IMG/VR virus record: IMGVR_UViG_3300045942_000027
Location: 1 to 40,732 of that record
Strand: one strand, 5' to 3'
DNA from: a virus
Length of the DNA stretch: 40,732 bases
Shown: one piece after another, positions 6,107 to 40,722 of the stretch
How the letters are laid out: each line of letters starts with the position of its first letter
Position numbering within the stretch: position 1 is the stretch's first letter
Notes under the pieces: generated by a model
Told to the model about the DNA's origin: nothing
Seen by the model: only the letters and a program-made list of their open reading frames with translations
Databases searched by the model: none
Program-made: the position numbers and the translations under genes

Positions 6107-6576
6107 GCGATATCGTGGAACGCCTGCGTTATCTTCGTGGAAATTCGACCCATCCAGCATTCATGGTTTATTCACAGGCCGCCGACGAGATCACCCGCCT
6201 CCGCACAGCCCTATCCGAAGCAGAGCAGCGCGCAAGGCGTGAGGCGCTGGAAGAGGCGGCAAACGCTGTCGACAATATCCCGTGCATCGGGCCATGCTAC
6301 GCTCATTATGACGCAATGTCAGCCGCCATCCGCGCCCTCATCCCATCAGAGCCTCTCAACGCTGACGGATGGGCGTTTGCCCAGGGCGATTACGTTTGTA
6401 AGAAATCAGGATCGTGGTGGGCGGGTCGCGTCGTCGGAACCTACGCTACCGAGCAAACACCGCGCGGCTATGCCGTGCAGCTGGATAAGCCGTTCGGCCC
6501 GGTGCAGATCTACCCGGAAAGCGCACTCGAACGCTTCATCCCATCAGAGCCTCATGATGCGGAGGGCCGGGAGTGA
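6103..6576 (+). CDS. Hypothetical protein with an internal IPSEP repeat
   Basis: ORF track. ATGA coupling at 6103. An 18-bp exact direct repeat lies at 6338..6355 and 6536..6553. Confidence 0.6.
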   Translation: MSDIVERLRYLRGNSTHPAFMVYSQAADEITRLRTALSEAEQRARREALEEAANAVDNIPCIGPCYAHYDAMSAAIRALIPSEPLNADGWAFAQGDYVCKKSGSWWAGRVVGTYATEQTPRGYAVQLDKPFGPVQIYPESALERFIPSEPHDAEGRE

Positions 6577-6967: not shown

Positions 6968-8053
6968 ATGCCAAAAAAGCTGTACCCACACGTCCACAAA
7001 CAAAAGACCCGCCATAAAAAGTGGGTCTTTTATTTTCGTGTCGGGAAAGGACCGCGCATACGGCTTCCAAACCCGACTGACCCAACATTCAAAGACACTT
7101 ACATGGCTGCCCTCAACGGGTCGCCGTTAAAGGTTCAAGTAGCTCATGACGGCACCTTACAATGGCTTTGGGAGAGGTATACGACCGAGAGCGCGAAGTG
7201 GGCGGGATACAGCCCCGCAACAAAGAAATACCAACAGCTGATCATGGATAAGGTGCTGGCAAGCGCCGGCAAGTCCGCTTTGAAGGTTATAACGCAAGAC
7301 GTTATCCAGGCAGGGGTTGATAAGCGCCACGAGACGCCAGCACAGGCCGGCAACTTTCTCAAAGTCATGCGAGGTTTATTTGGCTGGGCAAAGAAGATGC
7401 GCCTTGTCGCCGTAGACCCAACGCTTGGCGTCGAGCCCCCGGGCTATAAAACGGGCGGCTTTCCAGCTTGGACGATCGATGATGTCAAGGCATTCAGGGA
7501 GGTTCACAAGATCGGAACAACAGCTAGGCTGGCAATGGAATTAATGCTGCTTGCCGGCCTAAGACGCTCCGATGTGGTGAAAGCTGGGCGGCAGCACATA
7601 AATGGCCGGGTGCTTTCAATGAACACGGAAAAAACTGGCGCCAGAGTGACGGTAGAGCTTTCCGATGCGCTGATTTCGCTCATAGAAGCCACGCCACGGA
7701 AGGGCCTGCATCTGGTTGAGACCATGCATGGCAAGCCTTTCGTCAAGGAAGGATTCGGGAATTGGTTCCGGGAGAAGTGTGATGAGGCCAATGTGACAAA
7801 GTCTGCGCATGGGCTGCGAAAACTGAGCGCCACGCTGGCAGCAGAGGGAGGCGCGGCCACCCATCATTTGTTGGCGCAGTATGGCTGGACCAACATTGCA
7901 ACAGCGGAAATTTACACGAAGGGGATTGATCGTCGGCGTCTGGGCATCGAAGCAAGCCGCATCGTCGCGGACCAGATCGGGAACATAAATTCCCCTCACC
8001 CAAATTCAGGTGAGGGATTGAGTGAAAATGATAAAACGAAATCAAATACTTAA
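6968..8053 (+). CDS. int: Tyrosine recombinase (phage integrase)
   Basis: Catalytic-core motifs LAGLRRSDV (Arg), HGLRKLSAT (His-x-x-Arg) and GWTNIATAEIYTK (Tyr), with an N-terminal arm/SAM-like region. Confidence 0.9.
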   Translation: MPKKLYPHVHKQKTRHKKWVFYFRVGKGPRIRLPNPTDPTFKDTYMAALNGSPLKVQVAHDGTLQWLWERYTTESAKWAGYSPATKKYQQLIMDKVLASAGKSALKVITQDVIQAGVDKRHETPAQAGNFLKVMRGLFGWAKKMRLVAVDPTLGVEPPGYKTGGFPAWTIDDVKAFREVHKIGTTARLAMELMLLAGLRRSDVVKAGRQHINGRVLSMNTEKTGARVTVELSDALISLIEATPRKGLHLVETMHGKPFVKEGFGNWFREKCDEANVTKSAHGLRKLSATLAAEGGAATHHLLAQYGWTNIATAEIYTKGIDRRRLGIEASRIVADQIGNINSPHPNSGEGLSENDKTKSNT

Positions 8054-13514: not shown

Positions 13515-14795
13515 TCAGCCTCCTATGAAAATCACATCGACCTCGGGGAGATCGCCCGCTCCAACGGCGCCAGTCACGGAGCCGGTAGTAATCCGGCATG
13601 ACGTGGCGGTTTTGGCTGCGGGAGAATTCAATTCGATATAGCCTCTACCCCCTCCCGGCACTGGCGGCGCACCCATGCCCGCAACCACATAATTGCCGCT
13701 AGGAAGAGGAGTCGCGAAATTGACGGTGTAATCGCCAGTTCCATTGTCCGTGATGGAATTAACATTTTTGCTGGCTCGAATGGCGACCGTGCCTGTGCCG
13801 TTGAAATTGACCCATGCCCTAACATCACTGCTTTCTGGTACTGGTGGGATGGGCGCTCCATTTATGCCGCCAGTTCTGACCAGTGACCCAATAAGCCGTT
13901 TTCGGTCATAGCTCGCCGGTATCGTCGGAGCCGTCGAGGAAAGCGAAAACAGTACATCCGTGACAAGCGTGTCAGAACGCTGGATGAGCCAAATGTAATA
14001 GGTTGCCGCAGCGGAGACGGATCCGGTATCAAGGCCCCCTTGGTTTGTGCCGACTGCCCAATTCGCATCCAGACGCTTTGTGAGAGCGGCCCCAAGCTGC
14101 ATCAGATAGAAAGGCGGTGCATCCGAAGCAGCAGCACCAGCAGCAATATCAACGTCATTCGCTGCGTCTGCTACGTTTGTCGAAAGCGCAAGACCGGATG
14201 AAAAGCCCTGAATTTGCGGGCCGGCCAGCGGATCACCAGAAAGCTCGGTAGCAAAGGATGTGCCATTGCAATAAACGCGGGCAATCTGACCTGTTTGCAC
14301 AACAACCGTCGCGGCACCATCGATCGTTTCCGCCGCGTTCGGGTCTATCACGACATTGCCGTTGGTGGCCTGGATCTCACACCACCAGTTCGCGCCAAGG
14401 GTGGCGGCGGCTGTGAGGTTCAACGTAGCCACAGCGGTGAAACGGAATGCCGTAGCGTTATCGGCCTTGACCGCAGTGTAGGTCGCGCTCTTTGTTGAAA
14501 ACTTCAGAGCGTTATAGGCCACAGAATCCGTTGCGCCGGTAACCGCCGTCTCCATTTGCCCCTTCGTGACAGCATCCGCCGGGGCCGTCCCGTCACCCAA
14601 GCCGGTAATACGGAACGTGTTCATTTTGAGGTTGCCGATCATCGGCGCCCGGCCATCGCGCACAAGAACAGCGCTCAACCCTTGGGCAACGATATCTTCA
14701 AGCGGTGGGTTGTGCTGTGATGGCTGGATGGTCTGGCCGGCTATGGCGAGGTATCCGGGGGTTAATGAAAATACCCCGTTCGAGTCATACGGCAT
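13515..14795 (-). CDS. Tail fibre protein
   Basis: N-terminal pattern (NPPLEDIVAQGLSAVLVRDGRAPMIGNLKMNTFRITGLGDGTAPADAVTKGQ) is typical of phage fibre N-termini. The remainder is Gly/Ala/Thr-rich. SD GGAGG present. Confidence 0.7.
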   Translation of the reverse strand: MPYDSNGVFSLTPGYLAIAGQTIQPSQHNPPLEDIVAQGLSAVLVRDGRAPMIGNLKMNTFRITGLGDGTAPADAVTKGQMETAVTGATDSVAYNALKFSTKSATYTAVKADNATAFRFTAVATLNLTAAATLGANWWCEIQATNGNVVIDPNAAETIDGAATVVVQTGQIARVYCNGTSFATELSGDPLAGPQIQGFSSGLALSTNVADAANDVDIAAGAAASDAPPFYLMQLGAALTKRLDANWAVGTNQGGLDTGSVSAAATYYIWLIQRSDTLVTDVLFSLSSTAPTIPASYDRKRLIGSLVRTGGINGAPIPPVPESSDVRAWVNFNGTGTVAIRASKNVNSITDNGTGDYTVNFATPLPSGNYVVAGMGAPPVPGGGRGYIELNSPAAKTATSCRITTGSVTGAVGAGDLPEVDVIFIGG

Positions 14796-14811
14796 GTTGC
14801 CTCCATAGAAA

Positions 14812-14835
14812 AAGGCGGCTCAATGAACCGCCCTT
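14812..14835 (-). terminator. Weak hairpin plus U-tract upstream of the tail fibre gene (possible attenuator)
   Basis: Minus-strand RNA reads GGGCGG-UUCAUUGAG-CCGCCUUUUUCU. The stem is only 5-6 bp. Confidence 0.3.
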
Positions 14836-25815: not shown

Positions 25816-26163
25816 TTAGACGCGCTCGCCGCGGCGCTCGCCGCGGAGATAGCGGGCTTTGGCCTTTTCAATGGAGTCGCGGTAAACCTTCGGGTCTACC
25901 TTCTCCTTATTCTTCGGGCGCAGACGGGCAGGATCGTTGCCTACCTCAATAGCGCCGGCTTCCCGCGTGATGCGAGAGAACGTCGATTTGCTGGTGTAAT
26001 ATTTGCCGTCGATCGGATGCTGAAGCGGCTCGGTGGTGTCGCTGATGAAATAAGGCACGGGAAGGCCTTCCGACTGCCCTTCGGAAGCGACGGGATAGCA
26101 TTCAAGCGGCCACTCTTCCGTTTCATGCCATTTGCTGCACATGCGGCAGAAACGCTGCCTCAT
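25816..26163 (-). CDS. Hypothetical protein (115 aa) with an N-terminal Cys cluster
   Basis: ATGA-coupled to the portal stop. Contains CRMCSKWH...EC. Confidence 0.5.
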   Translation of the reverse strand: MRQRFCRMCSKWHETEEWPLECYPVASEGQSEGLPVPYFISDTTEPLQHPIDGKYYTSKSTFSRITREAGAIEVGNDPARLRPKNKEKVDPKVYRDSIEKAKARYLRGERRGERV

Positions 26164-28511
26164 TCGTCTGCCTCCTTGCTTTCCTGCATCTTCGCCTGTG
26201 CAGTCGCAGCACTGATCTCCACGCCGTGCTCCTTTGCCTCAATGTCGGCGTCGGTCTTGGCGATATGGGATTGCGTCGAAACCTTCGTCTGGTCGATCTT
26301 GGCGCGCAGCAGCTCGATGTTCAGAACACCAAGCTCAAGCTCCTGAGCGTGCTTTTTTGCTTCCTGTTCTGACTTCAGCTGGATCGCCTGCACCTCATGA
26401 GCCGTCTTGGCCTCAAGCATTTTCGCCTGATGGTCGGCCAGTTGACCCTTGATCTGCATATCCGTCTGCGCTGCCTGTTGCTTGCGCGCCTCGTCAGCCT
26501 GTGATGTCTGCTGCTTCAGCTGTGCGTCCAGCTGCTTTGCCTGCATGTCGGCCTGTGTCTTCTGTTGTTCCATTGCCAAACGCTGCTGCTCTGCCTGTGC
26601 GGTTGCCTGCGCTGCGTCAGCCTCTGGGTTTGGTGCCGGCTGCGATGCCATGTTCTTCATCGCATCGGCAAACTCGCTGATTGTCGTATCGAGTTCGCGA
26701 CCGGCCCTGAACTGGCTGGCAACGTACTTGAGCATGTCCGACACCAGCGGCGCGGCCTGCGGCATGGCCTGAAGAAGCGGGAACGCCTGCCCCATATACC
26801 CGCCGACTGCCGTCACAAACTCGGTTGCGCGCTGCTTCTGAGCGTTCTCATCTGGGGCGATCGTGGAATCTGTCTCAATGTCGAGGATGAACGGGCGTAG
26901 ACGCTGCTCACGCAACAATTCCATGACCTGATCAATGGTCACGGTTTCGCCTTCTTTGCGGATTTTCTCCTGAAGCTGGGCGGTCTGCTGTTGCGTCTGC
27001 TGCTGGAGCTGTTGAGCGGCTTTCTGCGCCTCTTCCGGGTTCTCTTGCGCCTTCTGCTGCATCTGCGGATTAGCTATGGCCTCCTTGGCCTGCTTCCCTG
27101 CGGACTTCACCAGCTCCTTGCCCTGGTCTTCGAGAGCCTTGACCTGCTTCTTCACGTCAGCGTCGGTCGGCAATTCCATTTGGCTCATGTCTTCCAGAGT
27201 TTTCTGCTGGAAGTTCTCAGCCATGATCTCCGCGGCAATGCGGGTAATATCGCGGGCTATGCGCACAAGCTCGTTCTGGCGATCCCTCACTCGAATTGAG
27301 CCGTACTGGCTCTTCAGTTCCTGGGCTCCAAGCGTCTCGTTTGCGTCTGTCGAGCCACGCATGATGTCGGATAGTCCGGTGATCTGGTACACGTCATCAA
27401 TCAGTGAGCGTCGAAGTTCGACAAGACCGGTGATGGTCTGGGCAACCATATCGATCGGCAGCCAGATGATCTGTTCGCCAGAACCGCCGAATGCTGCCCA
27501 ATTGGCGATCGGCACCATGATGGTGCCTTCGTCATTGCGCGCCAGTGCGGATTCGATCGCTTCGCCAACCTCACCACCGCCGGGATAGAAGCCCTTGAGC
27601 TTGACGGCCTCAGTGAGAGCAGCGATGCGCGTCGTGAGCTGGTTGATTTCCTCGATCTGGTCCTTGTAATAGACGTAATCAGGAACCGGTACGAGAGAGC
27701 CAGGCTGCACGGTGGCGTAGGCAGGCCGCGGGCATGGGAAAAATCCCTCAAGTTTCAGGTGCGGCTCATCGCTGTCAAGAACAGTATCAACGCCTTCGAC
27801 AACCCAAACGACGCGGTCTTCAGACTTGGACCAGATTTCCCAAACGCCAGCCTTCTTGATCGGGTCGCGGTTGCCGTTTTCCTTTCGGTCGCGGTCGTTC
27901 TCCTGAAACGCAGCCGTTTTCCAGTCATCTCCGCCGAAGCGATCCTGCATTTCTTCGGCAGTCATCCAGGCACGACGAGCAACCCAATCGACTTCCTGCC
28001 ATTTGCGTGCTGGTGCGCACAACCAATCACGACGATCGACATGCTCGATGCAAACGCGCTCGTTCTTCTTGCCGCGCTTCTCTTTGTCTTCGTAGCGAAT
28101 CCATGCGCAGCCTCGTGCAAGGCGCGTCAGGTCGTCACGAATGAGGATCATCGTGGAATCGATATCCTCCAGTTCGAACTGCACCGTTGTGGCGCGCTCC
28201 AGAAGCTCGGAGGCGGTCTGTGCAACAGGCTTGCGGCCACGGAAGCGAGGCGTGACGACAGGCACGGGAGGACGCGAATAGATCGACGGGCCGAGCACCT
28301 GGATATTTGCCCAGAATAGCTGAAACTCACGATCACGCCCCACGCCGGCAAGGCGCGACAGATCAGCAAAACGCTTGTCAATGTTGTCGCACTTCTGCTG
28401 CCAGTCGTGCATCGCATTTTCGGCGTCTTCGATCAGATTGAGCCACGCCTTAGAGCTTTCAGGCTCTAAGGACGGGTCATAATCTGGCTGTTCGAACTGA
28501 GCATCAACCAT
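26160..28511 (-). CDS. Portal protein with a long C-terminal Gln/Ala/Lys-rich coiled-coil extension
   Basis: 783 aa, immediately downstream of TerL. About 250 aa of heptad-like QQ/AQ/KQ repeats at the C-terminus. Confidence 0.75.
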   Translation of the reverse strand: MVDAQFEQPDYDPSLEPESSKAWLNLIEDAENAMHDWQQKCDNIDKRFADLSRLAGVGRDREFQLFWANIQVLGPSIYSRPPVPVVTPRFRGRKPVAQTASELLERATTVQFELEDIDSTMILIRDDLTRLARGCAWIRYEDKEKRGKKNERVCIEHVDRRDWLCAPARKWQEVDWVARRAWMTAEEMQDRFGGDDWKTAAFQENDRDRKENGNRDPIKKAGVWEIWSKSEDRVVWVVEGVDTVLDSDEPHLKLEGFFPCPRPAYATVQPGSLVPVPDYVYYKDQIEEINQLTTRIAALTEAVKLKGFYPGGGEVGEAIESALARNDEGTIMVPIANWAAFGGSGEQIIWLPIDMVAQTITGLVELRRSLIDDVYQITGLSDIMRGSTDANETLGAQELKSQYGSIRVRDRQNELVRIARDITRIAAEIMAENFQQKTLEDMSQMELPTDADVKKQVKALEDQGKELVKSAGKQAKEAIANPQMQQKAQENPEEAQKAAQQLQQQTQQQTAQLQEKIRKEGETVTIDQVMELLREQRLRPFILDIETDSTIAPDENAQKQRATEFVTAVGGYMGQAFPLLQAMPQAAPLVSDMLKYVASQFRAGRELDTTISEFADAMKNMASQPAPNPEADAAQATAQAEQQRLAMEQQKTQADMQAKQLDAQLKQQTSQADEARKQQAAQTDMQIKGQLADHQAKMLEAKTAHEVQAIQLKSEQEAKKHAQELELGVLNIELLRAKIDQTKVSTQSHIAKTDADIEAKEHGVEISAATAQAKMQESKEADE

Positions 28512-29921
28512 TCAAAGCTTTATCCGTCTTGATGAGCTCGCCATGGGAGGCGGCGGGGCAAGGATTTTGCCCTTTGGAATGATGAGCGGAGGCGGCGTAT
28601 CAATCGTCGGAATGGAGCGCCATGAAAGAGCAAGGTATCGAAAGGCATCGGACAGGTGAGAAGACCAGTCATGCACCTCAGACGCCTTGAACGTCTTCTT
28701 CTCGTCGTCCCATTCGCGTCGGTATTGCTCTAGTGCCGAAATTCCTTGATCTTCACAGTCTGGGTGGAATAGGCACAGGGGCAAGGTTTTGCGAACAGCG
28801 TTGATACCGTCCATCTTCGTAGCCATGGGCACCAGAAACGGCTTGAGGCCATACTCTCGCATCGTTTCGACGCGGGTGCGGCCCGTCCCCCATTCCTTCA
28901 CCTTGGCGTCGTGAGGGACGAAATCAGTGCCGAGCTTCCACCCGCGCTCCTGGTGGCGATTGTGGACAACATCGGCGTAATGATCGAGGCCGACGCCAGA
29001 CTGCGAGTAGCAATCCAGCACGAACACCTGAGCACCGCGGACCTGAAACCACCAGATAGACGTGTCGTCCTTTACTCCGATATCCCACGCTCTGTGCACA
29101 GGCAGGCTTAAATCAGGCTCGCACTCTTCGGTGATCCGTCCTTCGCGCCGTACCGCGACCATTTCTCTGGCATAGAAGGCGCCAAGGATAGCCGCGTTGA
29201 ATGAGACCTCGTATTCCTGCTCAAACTGCGCTCTGCCGATGTCCTCGCCATACAGCGCGATATACTCCGACAAGCTTTCCTTGATCTGCTGTGGCGATAG
29301 AGCCCCTGTCTCGTGGATGCTTAACGTTTCAGCGAACCAACGCGGGTTGTTCCTTGCCATCTCATACATTGAGTGAGCATGGTTGCGACCGCGGGGCGTG
29401 GTAATGAAAGCTGCCCAGCCGTCGTTCTCTTCGATCATGGGGCGGATGTAACCCCAAGAACTCGGGTTGCCCAAAGCCCACTCAGAGAAAACCACGCCGC
29501 CGACGCCCGCGCCTACGAGGCTGTTGTATCGGTCAGATCCGACTAGCTGCCATGTGCTGCCGTTCCTGAACTTGATCTTCATTTCCGTGGCGTTTGGCTC
29601 GCCGTCGATCAGCTCTTGAGGGAACGCCTCGAATATGCGCCTCTTGCCCGTATGTGCCGATACCGCGTCCCATATGGCTTTGCGGCACTGGTTATACTCG
29701 GGCAACATGTGCCAGTAGTTGGCAACGCGCTCATGTGCAGCGATCGCCGTCCGGTGAAGGATCACGTCGTCCTTACCCGCGCGACGGTGCCAGATGCCAA
29801 TTGCTCTTTTGCCGCCTCTTTCCAGATAATCCCAAAGCGGTCGCTGGTACGGCCTTGGAGACCAGCCGTTAGGAAGTCTTATCCGCAAAGCGGACGATCT
29901 CCAGAACCATCGGGCCCCCAT
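28512..29921 (-). CDS. terL: Terminase large subunit
   Basis: Walker-A-like WHRRAGKDD near the N-terminus and nuclease-domain-like C-terminal half (VHRAWDIGVKDDTSIWWFQ, DWSSHLSDAFRY). Start uncertain: ATG 29921 or TTG 29888. Confidence 0.85.
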   Translation of the reverse strand: MGARWFWRSSALRIRLPNGWSPRPYQRPLWDYLERGGKRAIGIWHRRAGKDDVILHRTAIAAHERVANYWHMLPEYNQCRKAIWDAVSAHTGKRRIFEAFPQELIDGEPNATEMKIKFRNGSTWQLVGSDRYNSLVGAGVGGVVFSEWALGNPSSWGYIRPMIEENDGWAAFITTPRGRNHAHSMYEMARNNPRWFAETLSIHETGALSPQQIKESLSEYIALYGEDIGRAQFEQEYEVSFNAAILGAFYAREMVAVRREGRITEECEPDLSLPVHRAWDIGVKDDTSIWWFQVRGAQVFVLDCYSQSGVGLDHYADVVHNRHQERGWKLGTDFVPHDAKVKEWGTGRTRVETMREYGLKPFLVPMATKMDGINAVRKTLPLCLFHPDCEDQGISALEQYRREWDDEKKTFKASEVHDWSSHLSDAFRYLALSWRSIPTIDTPPPLIIPKGKILAPPPPMASSSRRIKL

Positions 29922-30150
29922 CCTTGCCGCTGTGCTCAATGCTGGCGAGCTTTGCATGCACGTAAGGCGCAGCCTTCTCAGCAGCCCACATGCGATCCTT
30001 TACGTCAGCCTGCTCATTGCGCAGTATCTCAAGCATGTATTCAAGAGGGGTTAGGCCTTCTGTTGAAGCCTTCTCCGCAAGCTCTCTGTTTTTCTCGGTC
30101 AACGCGCCGCTTGGCCGGCCCGCGCCTTCGCGTTTACCTCCGCGCGCCAT
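29869..30150 (-). CDS. terS: Terminase small subunit
   Basis: MARGGKREGAGRPSG...LTPLEYMLEILRNE...RMWAAEKAAPYVHAKL is a classic small-terminase pattern. ATG 30150 has AAGGAAA upstream. Confidence 0.75.
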   Translation of the reverse strand: MARGGKREGAGRPSGALTEKNRELAEKASTEGLTPLEYMLEILRNEQADVKDRMWAAEKAAPYVHAKLASIEHSGKDGGPMVLEIVRFADKTS

Positions 30151-30291
30151 TGTTTGATTTCCTTTGATTAAATTCAAACGAGGCAGCCTGTACGGCCTCA
30201 CTGTGTTATTCCGGTTTGCCCACTTGAGCGCCGCCACGCAAAATTATTTCATTCAGCCGGTGAAGGCCTGGCATTTCTCGATAATGTTTTT

Positions 30292-30549
30292 CTACGAGTT
30301 GAGGGCTTCTCTAGCCTGTGGGCCATCAAGCCTCGTCAGCAAACGGCTGATAACCTCATCTTTGGTAATCCCAGAGTCCGGCGGCAGATACTGCGCTAGA
30401 TCCTGCTGGCAGTCCTTCACGAGGCGGATAAGCTTTTGGGTCTGGCTCATCACCCTCTCCCGCTCTTGCTCTGTGGTGGTCATGGGGTCAGTAGCCTCGA
30501 GCTGGGTTATCGCAGTACCCATCACGGTCATAATGGCGGCTGCGCTCAA
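30292..30549 (-). CDS. Hypothetical protein (85 aa or shorter)
   Basis: ORF track only. First ORF after the non-coding leader. Confidence 0.4.
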   Translation of the reverse strand: MSAAAIMTVMGTAITQLEATDPMTTTEQERERVMSQTQKLIRLVKDCQQDLAQYLPPDSGITKDEVISRLLTRLDGPQAREALNS

Positions 30550-31320
30550 CTGGCGCCGAGGCTTGCTGCATATATGCCACCGTCATTGCATACCGAGCGT
30601 CTGTCTTCATCCGGGGCCGACGAACTTTCGGCTTCTGGCCAAGAACCAATCCACGGTTAAGGTTCTTGCTTTATCGCACGTGGCTTAGCCACCCCCGAGC
30701 ACACTGTGCCTTGGGCACATGCGCGAAAAGGTATGGGGGCCAAGCAATCCCGTCGCGACTGAGACATCTCGGCCAAGCTCCTGCATATTCGCCTACGGGA
30801 CCGGAACCCTCTATGGTGCCAGCTAGGAGGAGCTACCTCTTTCGCGGCTTCGGCTACTTGCGATCACTGCTCTTCCCAATTCGGTTTAAGCTTTGTCTCT
30901 CACAACACGGCCTATCTGATAGTCAACGTGTTTTGAGTGTCATGGGTGGTGGTCAAATAAGAACCCGGGGCCGTGCCGCCACTCCCCGGGCATTCGCAGA
31001 AGCAAAGATCATTCACGATGTAGCGGCCATCACGGTCAGAAACTTTGCTTCGTCTGCATCCCGTCGCTTCGCCTCTTCGGCTCTCACTGACGGGTGCTGA
31101 CATCGACAGGAAGGGAACGACCGAGCACTCCCAATCTTCTCGAACCGAAGTCCGCCCTTCCTGATTTGCTGCGAGGGCCACACGCTACCGTGGCTTCCGG
31201 GTAAATCGTGATCGGTTGTGCGTCGCATTGACGCCAGCTCCGCGATTTCGGCCCCTGCCTTCAATGGGGCGCTTCTGCGTTTCAGCGCCGCCTCGCATTA
31301 CGTTGCCCTGATGGGCGAAA
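30550..31320 (-). promoter_or_regulatory. 770-bp non-coding, hairpin-rich leader ahead of the packaging/structural operon (candidate late control region)
   Basis: No credible ORF in any frame. Many GC-rich stem-loops (30616..30632, 30638..30669, 30680..30692, 30705..30717, 30964..30990, 31109..31161). Confidence 0.45.
30952..30990 (-). terminator. Intrinsic terminator on the minus strand inside the late leader
   Basis: Minus-strand RNA reads CCCGGGG-AGUGGCGGCACGG-CCCCGGG followed by UUCUUAUUU. There is no T-tract on the plus strand. Confidence 0.55.
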
Positions 31321-31842
31321 TTAACCTGTTGCCACCTTCAAAGGGTTCGACCGCTGCGCAACTGGCTTACCTTCTTTTCGGTGCCTATGCGCATCTTTGG
31401 CGTTGTCTGAAGCATTACCCCAATAAAGATGCTTTGGGGTGACGCATCCTAGATGCCCATTGCCGCAACGGTGAAGCGCCATAGCCTTTGGGTCTTCTGG
31501 AAGCTTGTTCACCTTTAGGCACATTGCGCGGTGCGCTGGCATTCTCTTAAAATTGAATGTCACCATGCCACGAGGCGAAGCTGCTGTAGTGAACGGATAA
31601 ATTATGCACTGATCGCCTTCATACGCAGAGAAAAGCTTTATCCAAAGCTCACTAGAGCCAGAACGAACTTTGCTAGGGCAAACGCTATTCCCTGGCAGCC
31701 GCACCACTCTTTGCTTCCAGCCAACATCAACGTGCTTACCCAGGCATTGGGTAACGAACTCGTGAGCTGCTTCCAAAAGAAATTTGTCGGGGGTCTTCGT
31801 CCCACAGTATCTCAAGTGCATTGGAATTGTATGCCGGTTCAT
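31321..31842 (-). CDS. HNH (HNH_3-type) homing endonuclease-like protein
   Basis: AHRAMCL...HRCGNGHLGCVTPKHLYWGNASDNAKD is the phage HNH_3 signature. Confidence 0.75.
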   Translation of the reverse strand: MNRHTIPMHLRYCGTKTPDKFLLEAAHEFVTQCLGKHVDVGWKQRVVRLPGNSVCPSKVRSGSSELWIKLFSAYEGDQCIIYPFTTAASPRGMVTFNFKRMPAHRAMCLKVNKLPEDPKAMALHRCGNGHLGCVTPKHLYWGNASDNAKDAHRHRKEGKPVAQRSNPLKVATG

Positions 31843-31951
31843 GGGCGCATTTCTCCCATATGTGGGAGTTGGATGCTCCCGGCTTGGCCGTCGAGTATTC
31901 CCTTTTGTAATGACGAAAGGTCCGACTGAAACGCCAAATCACTGCCGAACA

Positions 31952-32578
31952 TTAGCTTGCCATCGCGAAATTTGCAATAGGCCCCTCGCCTTCAAGGCTT
32001 TCCAATTCCTTGAGAATCAACAGGACTCTTTCGCGAGTTGGAGCCGATAGCTCTTCCATGGCTTGCTCAGCAGCATATCTCATAGAGACCTTCTTTCGTC
32101 GGCCTTTTGGTAATATCAGGCCCAGCTGGCGATTGAGGGCGTTTCGGCGCTGTTGGTTGGCAAGCTTCAGCTTTGCTTCCCTCTCCTGCTCGTAGATCGA
32201 TTTGCGCTCGAGATCGGCGAACATGAGGGTGCCGATATCTTCCGCCTCACGAAAGCAGGCGGGGCCACCGTCACGTGATGATCTCAGGAAGCACATGACA
32301 CCTTCGGTCCTGCGCACCTTCTCGAACTCGCCGTCTGCGATGTTGACGAACACATACCCGACCAGCAACGGAAAACGCTTGGCGACAACCTTGTTAGTGC
32401 GCTGGTGCCTCACGTCCCGCCAGAAAGACGGCATGTAAACGTCAATGCCCTCATTGCGCAGATTGCGCTCGATAATACTCTCACCCTCGCGCTTCGCCGG
32501 CACGTTGGCAGCCATAGACGCCATGCGCTGAGTGCCTGGCATTGGTCGGATTGCGTACCACTTGGTGTTCGTTTTCAT
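31952..32578 (-). CDS. NusG/RfaH-like NGN-domain protein without a KOW domain (candidate late antiterminator)
   Basis: KWYAIRPMPG...ERNLRNEGIDVYMP...AKRFPLLVGYVFVNI...VRRTEGVMCFLRS follows the NGN consensus. The C-terminal 90 aa are charged and helical, not KOW-like. Confidence 0.7.
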   Translation of the reverse strand: MKTNTKWYAIRPMPGTQRMASMAANVPAKREGESIIERNLRNEGIDVYMPSFWRDVRHQRTNKVVAKRFPLLVGYVFVNIADGEFEKVRRTEGVMCFLRSSRDGGPACFREAEDIGTLMFADLERKSIYEQEREAKLKLANQQRRNALNRQLGLILPKGRRKKVSMRYAAEQAMEELSAPTRERVLLILKELESLEGEGPIANFAMAS

Positions 32579-32802: not shown

Positions 32803-32973
32803 TCAATCCCCTTGTTTGTTTCTACCGAGAATTCGCTTGATCTCGTCCATGCACGCAGATGCGCCGCGCCCCTGCTGGTATTGGTCGAGAATGCGATGAA
32901 TAGCCGTCTCGCGCTTCTTGCGGTCGCTATTCGCCGCCTTGGCTTGGTGAATTGGTTGAGGAATAGCGCTCAT
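32803..32973 (-). CDS. Small hypothetical protein (56 aa, below the ORF-track cutoff)
   Basis: ATGA overlap with the HNH-AP2 stop at 32970..32973. Open to TGA 32803..32805. Confidence 0.4.
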   Translation of the reverse strand: MSAIPQPIHQAKAANSDRKKRETAIHRILDQYQQGRGASACMDEIKRILGRNKQGD

Positions 32974-33578
32974 GTAGGGGCGCCCTCCCTTTCAGCCTTG
33001 CGAGCTCGTGCAAACTGGTTGGGGGGGTCGTCGGTCCGAGTGAAGCCAAGAACTCTCTCGGCAGCTTTTCGAGCTATGTTCGCTTCGTGCAGCGTTCGGA
33101 AGGCGCCCAAATAAACATGCCTGGGGCCGTTCCAGATACGAGCCACCCACCTCCCGTCGCCGGGATTGTTGTTATATTTGGGCTTCCAATTTACGCCATG
33201 GACGCCCGAGGTGTTGTTGACACGTTGCGCCGCGTTGCGCTGGTTTTCGCTTTTCGTGACCTTCCGAAGATTTCCCCATCGGTTATCGGTCGGATCTCCG
33301 TTGATGTGGTCTATTTCGTATTCAGGATAAAAGCCGAACTCTCCGGTCATCATCAACCAGATCACACGGTGGGCATGATAATATGCCCCGTCAATGATCA
33401 CCTTGCGATACCCCTCAAACTTGAGGATCGATCCAGCTGGCTTGCCAACCCTTTTTAGGTGTTTGGCGTATGCGGCGGCGGTAAATTCAGCCCGGGGCCG
33501 CTCATTGAATAAAAGTTGACCTGTCTCTGGATCGTAATTGAAATATTCATTCGCTCGTGCTTGTGTGAGCGCAGCCAT
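32970..33578 (-). CDS. HNH_3 endonuclease fused to an AP2 DNA-binding domain
   Basis: AHRVIWLMMTG...IDHINGDPTDNRWGNLRKVTKSENQRN (HNH), then SGVHGVNW...GRWVARIWNGPRHVYLGAFRTLHEANIARKAA (AP2). Paralog of 40201..40722. Confidence 0.8.
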   Translation of the reverse strand: MAALTQARANEYFNYDPETGQLLFNERPRAEFTAAAYAKHLKRVGKPAGSILKFEGYRKVIIDGAYYHAHRVIWLMMTGEFGFYPEYEIDHINGDPTDNRWGNLRKVTKSENQRNAAQRVNNTSGVHGVNWKPKYNNNPGDGRWVARIWNGPRHVYLGAFRTLHEANIARKAAERVLGFTRTDDPPNQFARARKAEREGAPT

Positions 33579-34203
33579 TTGGAGCTCCTACCGGACTACT
33601 TTGGTTAGAACCAAGATTGAGTTGCCGCTCTTTCTTGGTTCGATTTTTATACCATATCGGGATCACATTTTCACTGTTAACACCTTGTTTTTTCGACATT
33701 TCCAGAGATATTTTGGTTACTGCAAATAAAGCACTGGTATGGTCACGCCCGCCGAATACTCTCCCTAGTTCTGGGAAGCTCATATGGGGCTTAACAAAAG
33801 TCTTTACCTCCCACATGACTAAATGACGCGCCGCCACTACAGCCCTTCCCCTATTGGGACCAATGAGAGTCTCGTAATCTATCGCTAGCTCAACCGCTCT
33901 CAACCTGATGTATTCCTTGCAACTCAACTGAAGCTCACCGTTTTCCAGTAGCCATTGCTTGATGTGGGCATCAAAACTGATCGCTTTGGTCTTCCACTCT
34001 GGTTGTCGATCAACCACGAGATGTTTCTGTTTAATCGCCACCCTCGACGCCGGTGCTGCGGAAAGCTTTGGTGCATCATCAAAATATGCGATCGTCTTTG
34101 GTTCGGTTAGCTTCTTTGCCGCTTCAAGTTTTCGCATAGCGCGGGCTTTAGCCGCCTCGTGAAATGCAGCCTGTGAGGGCGTTATCGGCTGGTGCATGTT
34201 CAT
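33547..34203 (-). CDS. DnaA domain-IV (DnaA-box-binding HTH) protein, candidate replication initiator or regulator
   Basis: C-terminus RGRAVVAARHLVMWEVKTFVKPHMSFPELGRVFGGRDHTSALFAVTKI aligns with DnaA domain IV, including FGGRDHT. No AAA+ Walker motifs. Confidence 0.75.
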   Translation of the reverse strand: MNMHQPITPSQAAFHEAAKARAMRKLEAAKKLTEPKTIAYFDDAPKLSAAPASRVAIKQKHLVVDRQPEWKTKAISFDAHIKQWLLENGELQLSCKEYIRLRAVELAIDYETLIGPNRGRAVVAARHLVMWEVKTFVKPHMSFPELGRVFGGRDHTSALFAVTKISLEMSKKQGVNSENVIPIWYKNRTKKERQLNLGSNQSSPVGAPNGCAHTSTSE

Positions 34204-34562
34204 CTGAAACTCCTCTCCGATCGCTCTCTCTCGCGCCGGATGTACTCTTCTCGGCTCTCGGCCTGGCGGGCGACGGGCGATATGGTGTAGCTTCCGAATG
34301 GTGGTGGACGATCAGTGCCGGCGTGTGGAAGCTTGGCGCGAGCGTTGGTAAACCAGTCCGATCGAAAGCCTTGCCAACCGTGGAGGATCTGCATTTCAGC
34401 CGCCTCCTGTGGGCTGCCGGTCTTCTCGTATTCCTTGACGAGGAGCTTGGCCGCATACACGGTGAGGGGCTTCTTTACCGTCTTCTTGCGGTGCTCGATC
34501 AGAGCGTCGGCCAGATCGTCGCCAACGCAGTCTGCAAGAACCTTTCTGATGTCTTCGGTCAT
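34200..34562 (-). CDS. Hypothetical protein (120 aa), replication-module position
   Basis: Internal ATG 34562 overlaps the rusA stop (TAATG). ATGA-coupled to the DnaA-like gene. Confidence 0.5.
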   Translation of the reverse strand: MTEDIRKVLADCVGDDLADALIEHRKKTVKKPLTVYAAKLLVKEYEKTGSPQEAAEMQILHGWQGFRSDWFTNARAKLPHAGTDRPPPFGSYTISPVARQAESREEYIRRERERSERSFR

Positions 34563-34927
34563 TAGGCTGCCAATCCTTCCGCTGCTTCTGTAACAACCAC
34601 CACGCATGGCGCAGGTAGACCAACGCCCCATGTCATCGTGAGGCGCTGGCACTTGCTGTCATCCTGAATGACGCCGTGCATAACGAGGAAATCCGAAATC
34701 GTCTTCTCTGTGTTAGCTAGATCCCGCGCGCGCTTGTCCGGCGCCTCAAGGCAGATCGCAATGTGGTAAGGGCCGATGTGCTGGCGATGTCTGTCACGCA
34801 CGTGCAGTGACGCTTCTGCTATCCAGGCGTTATATCGTGCCGTCTTGTGCCGACCACGCTTGTTGCCGCCGTTGGCGTATGCTGCGTTGACGGATATGGG
34901 AAATGGGAGATGAAGAGTGACGCTCAT
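34562..34927 (-). CDS. rusA: RusA-family Holliday junction resolvase
   Basis: LPFPISVNAAY...RARDLANTEKTISDFLVMHGVIQDDSKC matches the RusA pattern (PxSxN, catalytic Asp cluster). Confidence 0.8.
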   Translation of the reverse strand: MSVTLHLPFPISVNAAYANGGNKRGRHKTARYNAWIAEASLHVRDRHRQHIGPYHIAICLEAPDKRARDLANTEKTISDFLVMHGVIQDDSKCQRLTMTWGVGLPAPCVVVVTEAAEGLAA

Positions 34928-36662: not shown

Positions 36663-36698
36663 GCCGATGGCGAGCCGCCCTTGCCATCGGCTTTTATT
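36663..36698 (+). terminator. Plus-strand intrinsic terminator inside the minus-strand early operon, preceded by a second 9-bp hairpin (36627..36660)
   Basis: GCCGATGGC-GAGCCGCCCTT-GCCATCGGC followed by TTTTATT. On the minus strand no U-tract follows the stem. Confidence 0.5.
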
Positions 36699-38155: not shown

Positions 38156-38394
38156 GCGACTGTCTCCGGAATGGCGAAGAACTCCTCAGCGTCGAGCTTG
38201 ATCTGGTTTGCCTTTGCATACGCCAACAGTGCTGGCGCATCGCCTTGCGGGATTACGCCGCCAGTACCGCCCCGATCCTTCGGGTACATCCAACGATATA
38301 CGCGAGAGACGTGCTTACCGGTGATCTCAGACACCTTGTCGATGCCGATCTTGGCGATGATGGATTTTGCTGGGTCGAGATGTTTTTCGCTCAT
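38152..38394 (-). CDS. Cro-like HTH regulator (first gene of the leftward early operon)
   Basis: HTH-like KVSEITGKHVSRVYRWMY. Divergent from the CI gene across the operator region. No SD, so possibly leaderless. Confidence 0.6.
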   Translation of the reverse strand: MSEKHLDPAKSIIAKIGIDKVSEITGKHVSRVYRWMYPKDRGGTGGVIPQGDAPALLAYAKANQIKLDAEEFFAIPETVA

Positions 38395-38399
38395 GGAGG

Positions 38400-38486
38400 T
38401 ATAATTGCGATGATCGCAAAATTAAGTCAAGCGATTTTTGCGATATCCGCTATAGCAAAATTTGCGATGTTCGCCAAAATCCGCGC
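38400..38486. promoter_or_regulatory. Immunity control region: three operator-like 15-mers plus divergent promoter candidates
   Basis: Perfect palindrome TTGCGATGATCGCAA at 38405..38419. Imperfect copies start at 38438 and 38462. Leftward promoter candidate TTGACT (38425..38430 rc), N18, AATTAT (38401..38406 rc). Rightward candidate ATAGCA (38452..38457), N17, CAAAAT (38475..38480). Confidence 0.6.
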
Positions 38487-39167
38487 ATGACCGATACTAG
38501 AAAAGAAATCATCGAGTGGATCAGGAACGAACTGGACCGAATGGGCCACGGCGCGAGGATCAAGCTCGCCTCTCATCTAGGCATACGGCCAGAAGGCGTT
38601 ACGCGCATGTTAGGTAAACCCGGCAAGGAAGGTCGAGGCGTTGCCGGGCCGGAACTGGTCAAAATCAGCGAGTTCTTTGGATCGACGCCGCCTGGTCTTA
38701 AATTGGACCTCAATCCGATCGACGTTCAGATTGACACCATCCCTGTACGTGGGAAGGTGGCCGCCAGTTCATGGATGGATGTCGAGGATATGGATTTCGG
38801 CTGGGAGGATATGGAGCCGGTTCCGACGATCAGCGGATACCCAAAAGAGTATCAGTTCGCGTTGATGGTTGAAGGGAACTGCTTAAACAAAAAAGCGGCG
38901 CATGGCGACGTGCTGATTTGCCTTGATATCATCAAAGCTGGCGTACCCTTCAAGGAAGGCCAACTCGTCGTTGTCGAGCGCAAGAAATACGATGGGCAGA
39001 TGGTTCAACGGACGGCTAAGCGAGTTCGGATGACAGCCAAGGGATACGAGCTTTGGCCGGAAAGCACAGACCCGGCGCATCAAGACCCCATTATCCTATA
39101 TGAGGAATCGCCCGGTGAAAGCGCGGTGGTGATCGGCGTTGTTCTATGGATCTTTCGGAAACCTTAG
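38487..39167 (+). CDS. cI: CI-like repressor (HTH plus LexA/S24 peptidase-like C-terminal domain)
   Basis: C-terminal domain aligns with lambda CI: FALMVEGNCLNKK...HGDVLICLD...RTAKRVRM. Start at ATG 38487; the upstream part of the ORF is the operator region. Confidence 0.85.
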   Translation: MTDTRKEIIEWIRNELDRMGHGARIKLASHLGIRPEGVTRMLGKPGKEGRGVAGPELVKISEFFGSTPPGLKLDLNPIDVQIDTIPVRGKVAASSWMDVEDMDFGWEDMEPVPTISGYPKEYQFALMVEGNCLNKKAAHGDVLICLDIIKAGVPFKEGQLVVVERKKYDGQMVQRTAKRVRMTAKGYELWPESTDPAHQDPIILYEESPGESAVVIGVVLWIFRKP

Positions 39168-40200: not shown

Positions 40201-40722
40201 ATGATCACCCAGTCAGAGCTAAAGCAGCGAATGGATTATGACCCGGCGACGGGCATCTTCACCAGAAAGCATAAAGCGGCTGGATCGCGAAACGCTGCTT
40301 CCTGGAACGCTCAGTTCGCCGGCAAAGTCGCAGGCAGCGCTAACGGTCGCGGGTATGTTTACATCGTTATTGATCGCGTCGCCTACGCAGCGCACCGCCT
40401 TGCCGTCCTTTACGTGACCGGCGGCATTGAAGGCTTCGAGGTCGACCACATCAACGGCATCAGATCGGACAACAGGTTTGAAAATCTGAGACGCGTGAGC
40501 CGAACCGAAAACGCCAGAAACATGCCTCGCAGTAAACGCAACAAGTCGGGAGTGACTGGCGTGTACTGGAACAAGAAGCATCGGAAGTGGACCGCTCAAA
40601 TACTCATGAACGGCGTCAACAACTACCTCGGTGCATTCGATGAAAAAGCCGACGCCATCAGGGCGCGCAAGAAATCGGAAATTGAAAACGGTTTTCACCC
40701 AAACCATGGGCGCGCCGCCTGA
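40201..40722 (+). CDS. HNH_3 endonuclease fused to an AP2 domain; first gene of the rightward operon
   Basis: AHRLAVLYVTG...VDHINGIRSDNRFENLRRVSRTENARN, then SGVTGVYWNKKHRKWTAQILMNGVNNYLGAFDEKADAIRARK. Its 3' end is duplicated at 1..117. Confidence 0.8.
   Translation: MITQSELKQRMDYDPATGIFTRKHKAAGSRNAASWNAQFAGKVAGSANGRGYVYIVIDRVAYAAHRLAVLYVTGGIEGFEVDHINGIRSDNRFENLRRVSRTENARNMPRSKRNKSGVTGVYWNKKHRKWTAQILMNGVNNYLGAFDEKADAIRARKKSEIENGFHPNHGRAA

What the first reader, a model, noticed from the sequence alone, without database searches (positions are those of the whole stretch)
30550..32578. Candidate late-gene switch: NGN-only NusG paralog followed by a 770-nt structured leader with an intrinsic terminator
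The last early-left regulatory-type gene (31952..32578) has a clear NGN domain, but a charged helical tail replaces the KOW domain. Downstream, after an HNH gene, lie 770 bp with no credible ORF and many GC-rich stem-loops. One is a strand-specific terminator on the transcribed strand (CCCGGGG...CCCCGGG-UUCUUAUUU, 30952..30990). Next come a small ORF, terS, terL and about 21 kb of late genes on the same strand.

The arrangement parallels lambda Q/tR' and RfaH/ops logic: a specialised NusG paralog loaded in a long leader to read through terminators. A weaker hairpin plus U-tract before the fibre gene (14812..14835) would be another target.

The leader is much longer and more structured than a promoter and terminator need. 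It may also hold an ncRNA or the packaging site.
Basis: partly seen in the sequence, partly recalled or inferred. Interest (0 to 1): 0.7.

Follow-up and report, generated by a model that had tools for sequence, protein, structure and literature searches.

The report
Phage NusG-like late switch, RNA leaders
A temperate rhizobial phage carries, where lambda carries Q, a NusG-like protein that lacks the usual second (KOW) domain, followed by two conserved, undescribed structured non-coding elements and a terminator ahead of the late genes; it is probably a new variant of a late-gene antitermination switch, but this is untested.

Summary
ORF 31952-32578(-) is an NGN-only NusG paralog (Pfam E=1e-9; AlphaFold pLDDT 90; best fold match RfaH). 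An all-helical tail replaces KOW. The gap 30550-31320 is non-coding, and 30955-30990 is a strand-specific hairpin plus U-tract.

Comparison with about 140 related prophage loci changes the picture in four ways.

1. It is a 100-nt two-hairpin element ("PNE", 31843-31942) directly after the NGN stop. It occurs in 50 distinct versions, both stems covary, and 46 of 49 genuine copies sit 35-82 nt behind an NGN gene.
2. The His-Me/HNH gene is an insertion between PNE and the leader.
3. The leader starts with a 175-nt multi-stem element ("E", 31152-31326). Its closing helix covaries, and it pairs with a downstream terminator-like hairpin. It also follows unrelated regulator genes, so it is not NGN-specific.
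4. An ops-like CGGTAGCGTG match is probably coincidental.

Neither element matches Rfam. Folding energies of E and the unique 400 nt do not beat shuffles. An RfaH/Q-like antitermination logic is plausible by position, fold and linkage, but no experiment supports it.

The parts
31952..32578 (-). NGN-only NusG paralog, 208 aa. NGN fold at residues 5-110. The helical tail (111-195) carries a conserved basic LPKGR-RKK motif.
   Evidence: Pfam NusG E=9.6e-10 and no KOW; AF2 pLDDT 90; Foldseek best hits RfaH and NusG; PHROG 25909 'transcription antiterminator' E=5e-72; family alignment A2 with invariant L152, G159, R160.
31843..31942 (-). PNE, the post-NGN element. Order of blocks: a GTGATTTGGC (31942-31933), b GTCGGACC (31926-31919), hairpin H1 (31920-31901), c GGGAATACTCGACGGCC (31902-31886), hairpin H2 (31880-31864), e GAGAAATGCGCCC (31855-31843).
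   Evidence: Conserved after the NGN stop in relatives with only 43-57% protein identity. There are 50 distinct versions: H1 forms at least 4 bp in 49/50 and H2 at least 5 bp in 50/50, with 33 and 44 different sequences. 46 of 49 genuine copies lie 35-82 nt behind an NGN ORF. No Rfam hit.
31321..31842 (-). His-Me/HNH-type endonuclease gene, inserted between PNE and element E.
   Evidence: PHROG 1872. Absent at this place in L016-L018 and L060, where PNE is followed by E within about 60-90 nt.
31152..31326 (-). Element E, a conserved multi-stem leader element. P0 is 31316-31305. P1 is 31297-31291 paired with 31176-31170. P2 is 31288-31269. P3 is variable. P4 is 31194-31177, and its loop holds the ops-like CGGTAGCGTG.
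   Evidence: Exact-pattern scans; covariance model R1 scores 137.8 bits here; covariation counts; G-U wobbles fit this strand only.
31057..31092 (-). Conserved island M3 (CGTCAGTGAGAGCCGAAGAGGCGAAGCGACGGGATG).
   Evidence: Shared at 90-100% identity with L016, L027, L040, L043 and L044.
30955..30990 (-). T2, a terminator-like hairpin plus UUCUUAUUU.
   Evidence: Shared with L040 and L044, with a compensatory change in the inner stem. It occupies the place that hairpin T1 holds in about 35 other loci.
30484..30954 (-). Non-coding stretch with no similarity in any related locus. A possible place for cos/pac or promoter signals; function unknown.
   Evidence: Zero BLAST coverage from 30500 to 30890; flat codon-position GC; MFE z = -0.25.
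30292..30483 (-). Small late ORF, 63 aa from ATG 30483. The start region (MTTTEQERE) is conserved.
   Evidence: 32-nt island M5 is 93-100% identical in more than 25 loci; GC3 = 0.70.
29869..30150 (-). Small terminase subunit candidate.
   Evidence: PHROG 15261 and weak PHROG 641 'terminase small subunit'; gene call in L061.
28512..29957 (-). Large terminase subunit. The start codon is uncertain. The portal gene follows at 26160-28511.
   Evidence: PHROG 2 'terminase large subunit' E=1.4e-24.
14806..14835 (-). Canonical intrinsic terminator inside the late region (GGGCGGUUCAUUGAGCCGCC followed by a U-tract).
   Evidence: MFE -19.2 kcal/mol, z = -2.9.

Best explanation
The window is a lambdoid-style temperate rhizobial phage. 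One long minus-strand transcription unit runs from about 36.5 kb through replication genes, RusA and the NGN gene into about 21 kb of late genes.

The 208-aa NGN protein is the functional analogue of lambda Q or RfaH. Its NGN domain binds the elongating host RNA polymerase at the NusG site. Having no KOW domain, it cannot recruit Rho or S10.

The protein is loaded at the 100-nt PNE that is transcribed immediately after its own stop codon. In this model, hairpin H1 followed by the invariant single-stranded block GGGAAUACUCGACGGCC acts as a hairpin-assisted pause and recognition site, read either as nascent RNA or as non-template DNA. The basic helical tail possibly contacts the RNA.

The modified polymerase then reads through T2 (30955-30990) and later terminators such as 14806-14835, which delays late expression until the protein has accumulated.

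Element E plus its terminator-like hairpin is a separate, exchangeable leader cassette shared with phages that use other regulator genes.

Shown: the protein fold, the absence of KOW, the gene order, the non-coding status of the gap, covariation in PNE and E, and the NGN-PNE linkage. Inferred: RNA polymerase binding, loading at PNE, antitermination, timing, and any role for E.
For: - NGN fold with RfaH as best structural match; no KOW.
- The helical tail is conserved across about 25 clusters at 50% identity.
- Q-like position: RusA at 34562-34927, a DnaA_C gene, then NGN, then terS/terL. A terL-sized ORF lies 1.6-3.5 kb downstream in every locus with enough downstream DNA, 22 listed.
- PNE follows the NGN stop in all NGN subfamilies, including phiLM21 and RHph_TM3_3_3. 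Block c is nearly invariant, while the NGN proteins fall to 43% identity.
- Both PNE hairpins are kept through 33 and 44 different sequences.
- 46 of 49 genuine PNEs are 35-82 nt behind an NGN ORF. Of the other three, L115 has a gene inserted between the two.
- T2 is a hairpin plus U-tract on the transcribed strand only, conserved with a compensatory change.
- A strong terminator lies inside the late operon.
- The phiLM21 homologue is annotated as an antiterminator that closes the early region (PMC12429752).
Against: - There are no expression or biochemical data for any member of the family.
- Sequence similarity to solved NusG/RfaH is weak (E about 1e-3; hhalign probability 7.5%).
- Of the RfaH residues that read ops, only the R23 equivalent (R38) is kept.
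- PNE could equally be a 3'UTR stability or translational element, or a DNA-level site.
- H1 is short (4-7 bp). The hairpins were scored per sequence, not on a structural alignment; RNAalifold on the MAFFT alignment found nothing.
- T2 is a single pattern match, and such matches are not enriched in this region.
- A late promoter downstream of T2, for example in the unique 390 nt or near island M6, would make read-through unnecessary.
Confidence: 0.45

Rival explanations
1. The NGN protein acts without a specific loading site. As a KOW-less decoy it displaces host NusG from all polymerases (or from those nearby), blunts Rho-dependent termination on the long phage transcript, and may disturb host transcription. 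PNE would then be a 3'UTR stability, processing or translational-coupling element for the NGN message.
For: The isolated RfaH NGN domain works without ops in vitro (established knowledge; see PMC7593976). There is no KOW, so no Rho or S10 contact. RfaH's DNA-reading residues are mostly absent.
Against: Tight co-inheritance of PNE with NGN across 43-100% protein identity, with a 17-nt near-invariant block, is more than a generic 3'UTR needs. PNE stays linked even when a gene is inserted between the two.
Confidence: 0.2
2. Element E together with its 3' hairpin (T1 elsewhere, T2 here) is an autonomous RNA device, not a target of the NGN protein. It could be a protein-independent processive antitermination RNA (like HK022 put or Bacillus EAR), a processing or tRNA-like punctuation signal, or a discrete non-coding RNA.
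For: E follows at least five unrelated regulator-position gene families. Most NGN+PNE phages have no E. T1 occurs only downstream of E, in 35 loci plus one truncated one. In L023 the E-T1 pair sits between terL and portal, so read-through must be built in. tRNA genes are inserted between E and T1 in L039 and L052. The topology of P1 (7 bp), a 2-nt linker, P2, a variable arm, and P4 abutting the P1 3' strand resembles a cloverleaf.
Against: No conserved promoter lies upstream of E. ARAGORN and Rfam find nothing. The folding energy is not better than shuffles. Part of the P1 covariation rests on four or five divergent sequences whose 3' strand was located by complementarity.
Confidence: 0.3
3. 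Part of the gap is the DNA packaging site. An HNH-type endonuclease gene next to terS/terL is the HK97-style arrangement in which cos lies between HNH and terS. The unique, unconserved 30500-30890 stretch would be cos plus terminase-binding sites.
For: Gene order is HNH, gap, small ORF, terS, terL, portal, the same order as in phiLM21. The unique stretch co-varies with the packaging module, not with the NGN module.
Against: The endonuclease is a His-Me type inserted at this spot and absent from the closest relatives. Two further HNH_3 genes in the genome look like homing endonucleases. No ends are known, and no repeats or cos-like symmetry were looked for in detail. E and PNE also occur with Sf6/P22-type headful modules, so they are not cos.
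Confidence: 0.25
4. PNE is a DNA-level late promoter and loading region, as pR'/qut is for Q. The conserved blocks would be promoter or operator elements, and the hairpins incidental.
For: PNE lies immediately after the regulator's stop codon, like pR' after Q. Block c contains CTCGAC, which is 5/6 of the rhizobial -35 consensus CTTGAC (consensus recalled from memory). GGTCGGACC is a DNA palindrome.
Against: No -10 lies at a fitting distance. The spacing between blocks varies by 10-30 nt. Two hairpins are kept through many compensatory changes, which points to a single-stranded form. The sigma-70 scan finds nothing here.
Confidence: 0.12

Closest known systems
RfaH with its ops element (Enterobacteria)
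   Same: A specialised NusG paralog whose NGN domain is the closest structural match (5ond, 8pen). The proposed logic is the same: load at a specific site in a leader, then read through terminators and polarity signals in a long horizontally acquired operon.
   Different: There is no KOW domain at all; RfaH has a fold-switching KOW. The ops-reading residues K10, H20 and R73 are not kept. The candidate site is a 100-nt two-hairpin element rather than a 12-nt non-template DNA motif. The gene is encoded directly upstream of its presumed target. The 10/12 ops match in E does not track with NGN.
Lambda Q with qut/pR'/tR'
   Same: Same genome position: after the nin/RusA-type genes, the last early gene, directly before a non-coding leader with a terminator and then the late operon. 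A cognate cis element sits right after the regulator's stop codon.
   Different: The protein family is unrelated. No late promoter was identified. In Stx phages tRNA genes also sit in this leader, which parallels the tRNAs seen here in relatives (from memory).
LoaP (Bacillus/Firmicutes NusG paralog) with its leader RNA hairpin; UpxY in Bacteroides
   Same: NusG paralogs encoded next to the operon they control. LoaP uses an RNA hairpin in the leader (PMC12691694 and PMC11685472, listed).
   Different: Both keep a KOW domain. They are cellular, not phage late switches. There is no sequence relation between the cis elements.
Lambda N with nut (boxA + boxB); HK022 put; Bacillus EAR RNA
   Same: Structured or hairpin-plus-linear RNA signals in phage or operon leaders that make polymerase terminator-resistant. 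PNE (conserved linear block between hairpins) resembles nut in layout. E resembles put/EAR in being portable inside an operon.
   Different: No sequence or model match (Rfam). A boxA-like TGCTCTTTAAC was seen in only one relative (L013).
Sinorhizobium phage phiLM21 gp34 'transcription antiterminator' and Rhizobium phage RHph_TM3_3_3 'NusG-like antiterminator'; PHROG 25909
   Same: True homologues (65-68% DNA identity) with the same synteny and a PNE.
   Different: They are annotated by homology only. Their records and PMC12429752 describe no cis element, no KOW loss and no mechanism. They lack element E.

Membership tests
NusG/Spt5 family | NGN domain (PF02357) with the RNAP-binding alpha/beta fold | tested here: met
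   39.3 bits against cutoff 22.2. The AF2 model matches RfaH/NusG NGN domains with probability 1.0 and TM up to 0.81.
NusG/Spt5 family | At least one C-terminal KOW beta-barrel domain | tested here: not met
   No KOW in Pfam at E<0.1. A PDB profile search matches only the NGN part. The model is all-helical after residue 110. All 120 listed homologues carry PF02357 only or nothing.
RfaH subfamily | ops-contacting residues (K10, H20, R23, Q24, R73) and an alpha-hairpin/beta-barrel fold-switching KOW | tested here: not met
   hhalign (low confidence) keeps only the R23 equivalent, R38. No KOW sequence.
RfaH subfamily | ops element (GGCGGTAGnnTG) in the leader of the target operon | tested here: inconclusive
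   CGGTAGCGTG occurs once in the window, at 31181-31190 on the minus strand; the chance mean for the looser pattern is 0.62. It forms the loop of P4 in element E. It is present with non-NGN regulators and absent from several NGN-linked copies of E (L016, L046, L052, L007).
Lambda Q-type antiterminators | Q protein family homology | tested here: not met
   No Pfam or PHROG Q family hit. The only hits are NusG and PHROG 25909.
Lambda Q-type antiterminators | Regulator gene directly upstream of a late leader with terminator and late operon | tested here: met
   Gene order; T2.
Intrinsic (Rho-independent) terminator | GC-rich hairpin immediately followed by a U-tract on the transcribed strand | tested here: met
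   T2 has a 7-bp GC stem plus a 3-bp inner stem, then UUCUUAUUU, on the minus strand only. Termination activity was not tested.
Any Rfam RNA family or tRNA/tmRNA | Covariance-model or ARAGORN match | tested here: not met
   No hit at gathering thresholds in the whole window. Only noise at E<10 in 30200-31400 and 31780-32010. No tRNA or tmRNA.
HK97-type HNH-terminase cos packaging module | HNH endonuclease gene adjacent to terS/terL with cos between them | not testable with these tools
   The adjacency is present, but the gene is an insertion absent from close relatives, and no virion end data exist.

The most novel reading that the evidence does not exclude
Rhizobiales temperate phages use a previously undescribed late switch. 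A NusG paralog that has lost KOW and gained a conserved basic helical tail is loaded onto RNA polymerase by a dedicated two-hairpin element (PNE) transcribed right after its own gene. Many of the same phages also carry an exchangeable structured leader cassette (E plus hairpin T1/T2) that is a new RNA class, possibly a protein-independent antitermination or processing device.
Probability: 0.35. Interest if true: 0.75.

Novelty: new variant of a known kind. Interest (0 to 1): 0.62.

Why it matters
Specialised NusG paralogs (RfaH, LoaP, UpxY, TaA) are the main known way bacteria exempt long foreign operons from termination. How each is recruited is known for very few.

A phage family that pairs a KOW-less NGN protein with a co-inherited, easily mutated 100-nt cis element would give three things:
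- a compact, testable system for asking what an NGN domain alone can do;
- a case of NusG-paralog recruitment outside the enterobacterial ops paradigm;
- the late switch of prophages that a recent survey (PMC12429752) reports as the most prevalent in Sinorhizobium meliloti and that also occur in Agrobacterium and Rhizobium, whose late regulation I found no study of.

The two elements are also candidate new RNA families for Rfam, with covariation support already in hand.

Tried and rejected
1. ops as the NGN loading site. The 10/12 match at 31181-31190 looked striking, but it is the loop of P4 in element E. It occurs mostly with non-NGN regulators and is missing from several NGN-linked copies of E.
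2. Element E as the NGN target. Only 6 of the first 31 E loci have an NGN gene upstream, and none of the 70 loci found with PNE block c (about 50 of them genuine PNEs) has E.
3. A small peptide in PNE. A 37-aa ORF (31839-31952) overlaps the NGN stop (TAATG) and the HNH start (ATGA). In relatives the same nucleotides are read in other frames with indels.
4. boxA/nut. TGCTCTTTAAC occurs in one relative only.
5. Sigma-70, sigma-54 or ECF promoters in PNE or E. Nothing convincing by scan or by eye.
6. A high-copy intergenic repeat (RIME-like). E is single-copy per contig and rare in metagenomes, with 10 hits. There are no hits in cultured phages or plasmids.
7. Coding potential of the gap and of the + strand ORFs 30666-31100 and 30164-30688. 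Rejected on codon-position GC.
8. Thermodynamic evidence for structure. Not significant.
9. RNAalifold on a MAFFT alignment of PNE. It failed because the stems are not alignable by sequence, so I used per-sequence folding instead.
10. Function of the alternative regulator-position proteins (DUF6362-like and others). All are 'hypothetical'.
11. The genome-contig scan gave only 3 loci.
Full report
**What the window is.** The 40.7-kb window looks like a complete, circularly permuted temperate phage of the Rhizobiaceae.
- On the + strand lie an S24 (LexA/CI-type) repressor candidate (38367-39167), ERF and SSB recombination genes (2843-3856) and an integrase (6968-8053).
- On the minus strand, ORFs run without a change of direction from about 36.5 kb to about 8.7 kb. 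The order is RusA (34562-34927), a DnaA_C-domain protein (33547-34203), an HNH_3 endonuclease (32970-33578), a 67-aa ORF, the NGN protein (31952-32578), a His-Me/HNH-type endonuclease (31321-31842), the gap, a small ORF, terS, terL, portal and the rest of the late genes.
- The nearest cultured relatives are Sinorhizobium phage phiLM21 and Rhizobium phage RHph_TM3_3_3 at about 65-68% DNA identity over the NGN gene. Their homologues are annotated 'NusG-like transcription antiterminator'.

**The protein.**
- Pfam finds the NusG NGN domain (E=9.6e-10, above the curated cutoff) and nothing else.
- An AlphaFold2 model built on 41 homologues is confident (pLDDT 90, pTM 0.76). Residues 5-110 form an NGN fold. 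These are followed by a 45-residue helix and two shorter helices, with no beta-barrel.
- Foldseek ranks RfaH (5ond, 8pen, 8pfg) and NusG first. Among viral models only four RfaH/NusG-like proteins match.
- A profile search of PDB sequences matches only the NGN part, and weakly.
- A low-confidence profile alignment to E. coli RfaH (sequence from memory) keeps the equivalent of R23 but not K10, H20 or R73.
- The tail is conserved in the family, including an LPKGR-RKK basic motif.
- The family is small. Of 1.84 billion cluster representatives, 105 reach E<=0.001 and 42 reach E<=1e-10. All named members come from Rhizobium, Agrobacterium, Sinorhizobium, Neorhizobium or Shinella.
- So it is a NusG-family protein by its NGN domain. 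It fails the two-domain definition, and it is not an RfaH orthologue.

**Position.** In every related locus with enough downstream sequence (22 listed), a terL-sized ORF begins 1.6-3.5 kb after the NGN stop. With RusA just upstream, this is the lambda Q position. [quoted passage not shown] Reviews of NusG paralogs mention rfaH-like genes on prophages only in passing (PMC7593976; PMC7819879).

**The gap.** The stretch 30550-31320 has flat GC across codon positions, unlike every gene around it, and the overlapping + strand ORFs are equally flat. A gene caller on an identical contig leaves it empty. It has no tRNA and no Rfam match. Its predicted folding energy is no better than dinucleotide shuffles. 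'Highly structured' therefore cannot be claimed from thermodynamics.

**Element E.** Comparison with closer relatives (NGN 83% identical; L016-L018) showed short islands of 92-97% identity inside otherwise unalignable DNA.
- Exact-pattern scans with two islands found them together, on the same strand and 93-158 nt apart, in about 20 IMG/VR prophage contigs. Ten metagenome loci matched the 5' island.
- Together they define element E (window 31152-31326, minus strand). It has a 4-bp hairpin P0 (GCCC-N4-GGGC), a linker AAMGNAAU, and a helix P1 that closes a junction holding P2, a variable arm and P4.
- In the main family P1 is invariant, while P2 and P4 show compensatory changes. Six or seven pairs change on both sides, against 1-2 in shuffles and 0-3 when the partners are slid.
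- A looser pattern brought in divergent members (L007/L069, L062, L064, L065, L071; also L016). In these P1 is replaced by different but complementary sequences: ACGGUGCGG/CCGCACCGU, ACAGGCG/CGCCUGU, UCGGGGAGG/CCUUCCCGA and UGGCAGG/CCUGCCA.
- On an alignment of the two flanks, 100% of cells pair and 6 of 7 P1 pairs show double changes.
- Caveat: I located the 3' strand in the divergent members by complementarity. The count therefore leans towards the structure, and it rests on four or five independent lineages.
- G-U wobbles in P0, P1 and P4 fit the minus (sense) strand only.

**E is not specific to the NGN protein.** Only 6 of the first 31 E loci have an NGN gene upstream. The others have DUF6362-like or unknown proteins in that place, all 'hypothetical'. 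In L023, E lies between terL and portal.

**What follows E.**
- Within 220-460 nt in most loci comes a hairpin, T1 (AGCCCCGCC-CGUAACAA-GGUGGGGCU). Its 30-nt probe matches at 100% identity in nearly all of about 35 loci.
- T1 is often followed by a U-rich run, or by AGGAG-N-AUG of the first small late gene. It is never seen without E.
- In a few phages tRNA genes sit between E and T1.
L040 and L044 share T2, one with a compensatory change in its inner stem.
- After T2 come about 390 nt with no similarity in any locus. Then comes a 32-nt island covering the start of a small ORF (MTTTEQERE; ATG 30483), conserved in more than 25 loci, and a further island just after that ORF's stop.

**PNE.** The stretch right after the NGN stop is conserved wherever the NGN gene is, even at 43-57% protein identity. 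This includes phiLM21 and RHph_TM3_3_3.
- It is not a peptide, because frames and indels differ between relatives.
- It has a fixed order of blocks: GUGAUUUGGG, GUCGGACC, hairpin H1, the nearly invariant GGGAAUACUCGACGGCC, hairpin H2, then (G)AGAAAUGCGCCC. In the window this is 31942-31843.
- Among 50 distinct versions in 74 loci, H1 forms at least 4 bp in 49 and H2 at least 5 bp in all 50. They do so through 33 and 44 different sequences. Mean z against mononucleotide shuffles is -3.0 and -1.7.
- A scan for the invariant block found 71 viral contigs. Of the 61 with enough upstream DNA, 46 have an NGN ORF ending 35-82 nt upstream. Of the other 15, 12 are chance hits lacking the other blocks.
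- Of the three remaining copies, L115 has a gene inserted between NGN and PNE, L077 has a 262-aa ORF upstream but is too short to show an NGN gene, and L080 has no NGN ORF detected upstream. L009 (an earlier locus) has an HNH gene inserted between NGN and PNE.
- There is no Rfam match.
- In the window the His-Me/HNH gene is inserted between PNE and E. In the closest relatives (L060 at 97% NGN identity; L017) E follows PNE within 60-90 nt.

**Interpretation.** Three facts point to an NGN-type elongation factor loaded at PNE that carries polymerase through T2 and later terminators, such as the strong one at 14806-14835: the co-inheritance of PNE with the NGN gene, the Q-like position, and the RfaH-like fold.
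- One register of the invariant block fits the elemental pause consensus G(-10)...Y(-1)G(+1), and H1 ends where a pause hairpin would. This is my inference from known pause rules, not a result.
- Lacking KOW, the protein would also exclude host NusG and hence Rho stimulation.
- All of this is inference. A late promoter downstream of T2 would make it unnecessary, and PNE could be a 3'UTR or a DNA-level element.
- E with T1/T2 is best seen as a separate, portable leader cassette of unknown function: put/EAR-like antitermination, processing, or a discrete RNA.
- The packaging site may lie in the unique 390 nt, but E and PNE also occur with Sf6/P22-type headful modules, so they are not cos.

**Verdict.** The finding is a new variant of a known kind (specialised NusG-paralog antitermination) and comes with two candidate new structured elements. 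It is worth an experiment, but nothing functional has been shown.

Noticed in passing
window 31321-31842, 32970-33578, 40201-40722: Three HNH/His-Me endonuclease genes in a 40.7-kb genome. The first is clearly an insertion relative to close relatives, between PNE and E. In other phages HNH genes are inserted between NGN and PNE (L009). This looks like homing-endonuclease traffic around the early/late junction.
   Followed up: partly
window 6103-6576 (+): The 157-aa ORF just upstream of the integrase has an R67-type dihydrofolate reductase domain (PF06442, E=4.8e-17), the fold of plasmid-borne type II trimethoprim-resistance DHFR.
   Followed up: no
related loci, e.g. L017 6140-6170; about 35 loci: Hairpin T1 (CACC-AGCCCCGCC-CGTAACAA-GGTGGGGCT) matches its 30-nt probe at 100% identity, loop included, in nearly all E-bearing phages that are otherwise very diverged, and it is never found without element E. 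The U-tract after it is often poor, so it may be more than a terminator.
   Followed up: partly
L023 5544-6260: In this contig the E-T1 cassette lies between terL and portal instead of at the early/late junction. T1 there has a very good U-tract directly before the portal gene.
   Followed up: partly
L039, L052-L054, L035, L044, L064: tRNA genes are inserted in the same non-coding region: between E and T1, just before E, or just after T1. L064 has a second copy of the P0 hairpin after its tRNA. L027 has a tandem partial copy of E (26.9 bits).
   Followed up: no
window 30451-30500 and 30267-30298: Two short islands are conserved across phages with different packaging modules. One is 93-100% identical in more than 25 loci and covers the start of the small ORF (MTTTEQERE). 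The other, just after its stop codon (TCGTAGAAAAACATTATCG...GAAATGCCA), is shared by fewer loci (about 8, at 89-92% identity). Either could be a module-boundary sequence or a regulatory site.
   Followed up: partly
L013 3668-3677: A perfect boxA-like TGCTCTTTAAC lies about 25 nt after a CGGTAGATTG, roughly 470 nt downstream of the NGN gene in one distant relative. It was not seen in the others.
   Followed up: partly
loci L026, L029, L033, L035, L043 and others (ORF upstream of E): Several unrelated protein families of about 180-290 aa occupy the regulator position upstream of E. These include DUF6362-like proteins, PHROGs 37864, 21451 and 6836, and many that end in an arginine-rich ...RREREARKREAA tail. 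All are annotated hypothetical. They may be alternative late regulators.
   Followed up: partly
window 14806-14835 (-) and 36663-36691 (+): A strong canonical terminator lies before the 13515-14795 ORF (z = -2.9). A 12-bp hairpin with a U-tract lies in the divergent region between the minus-strand operon and the + strand genes.
   Followed up: partly
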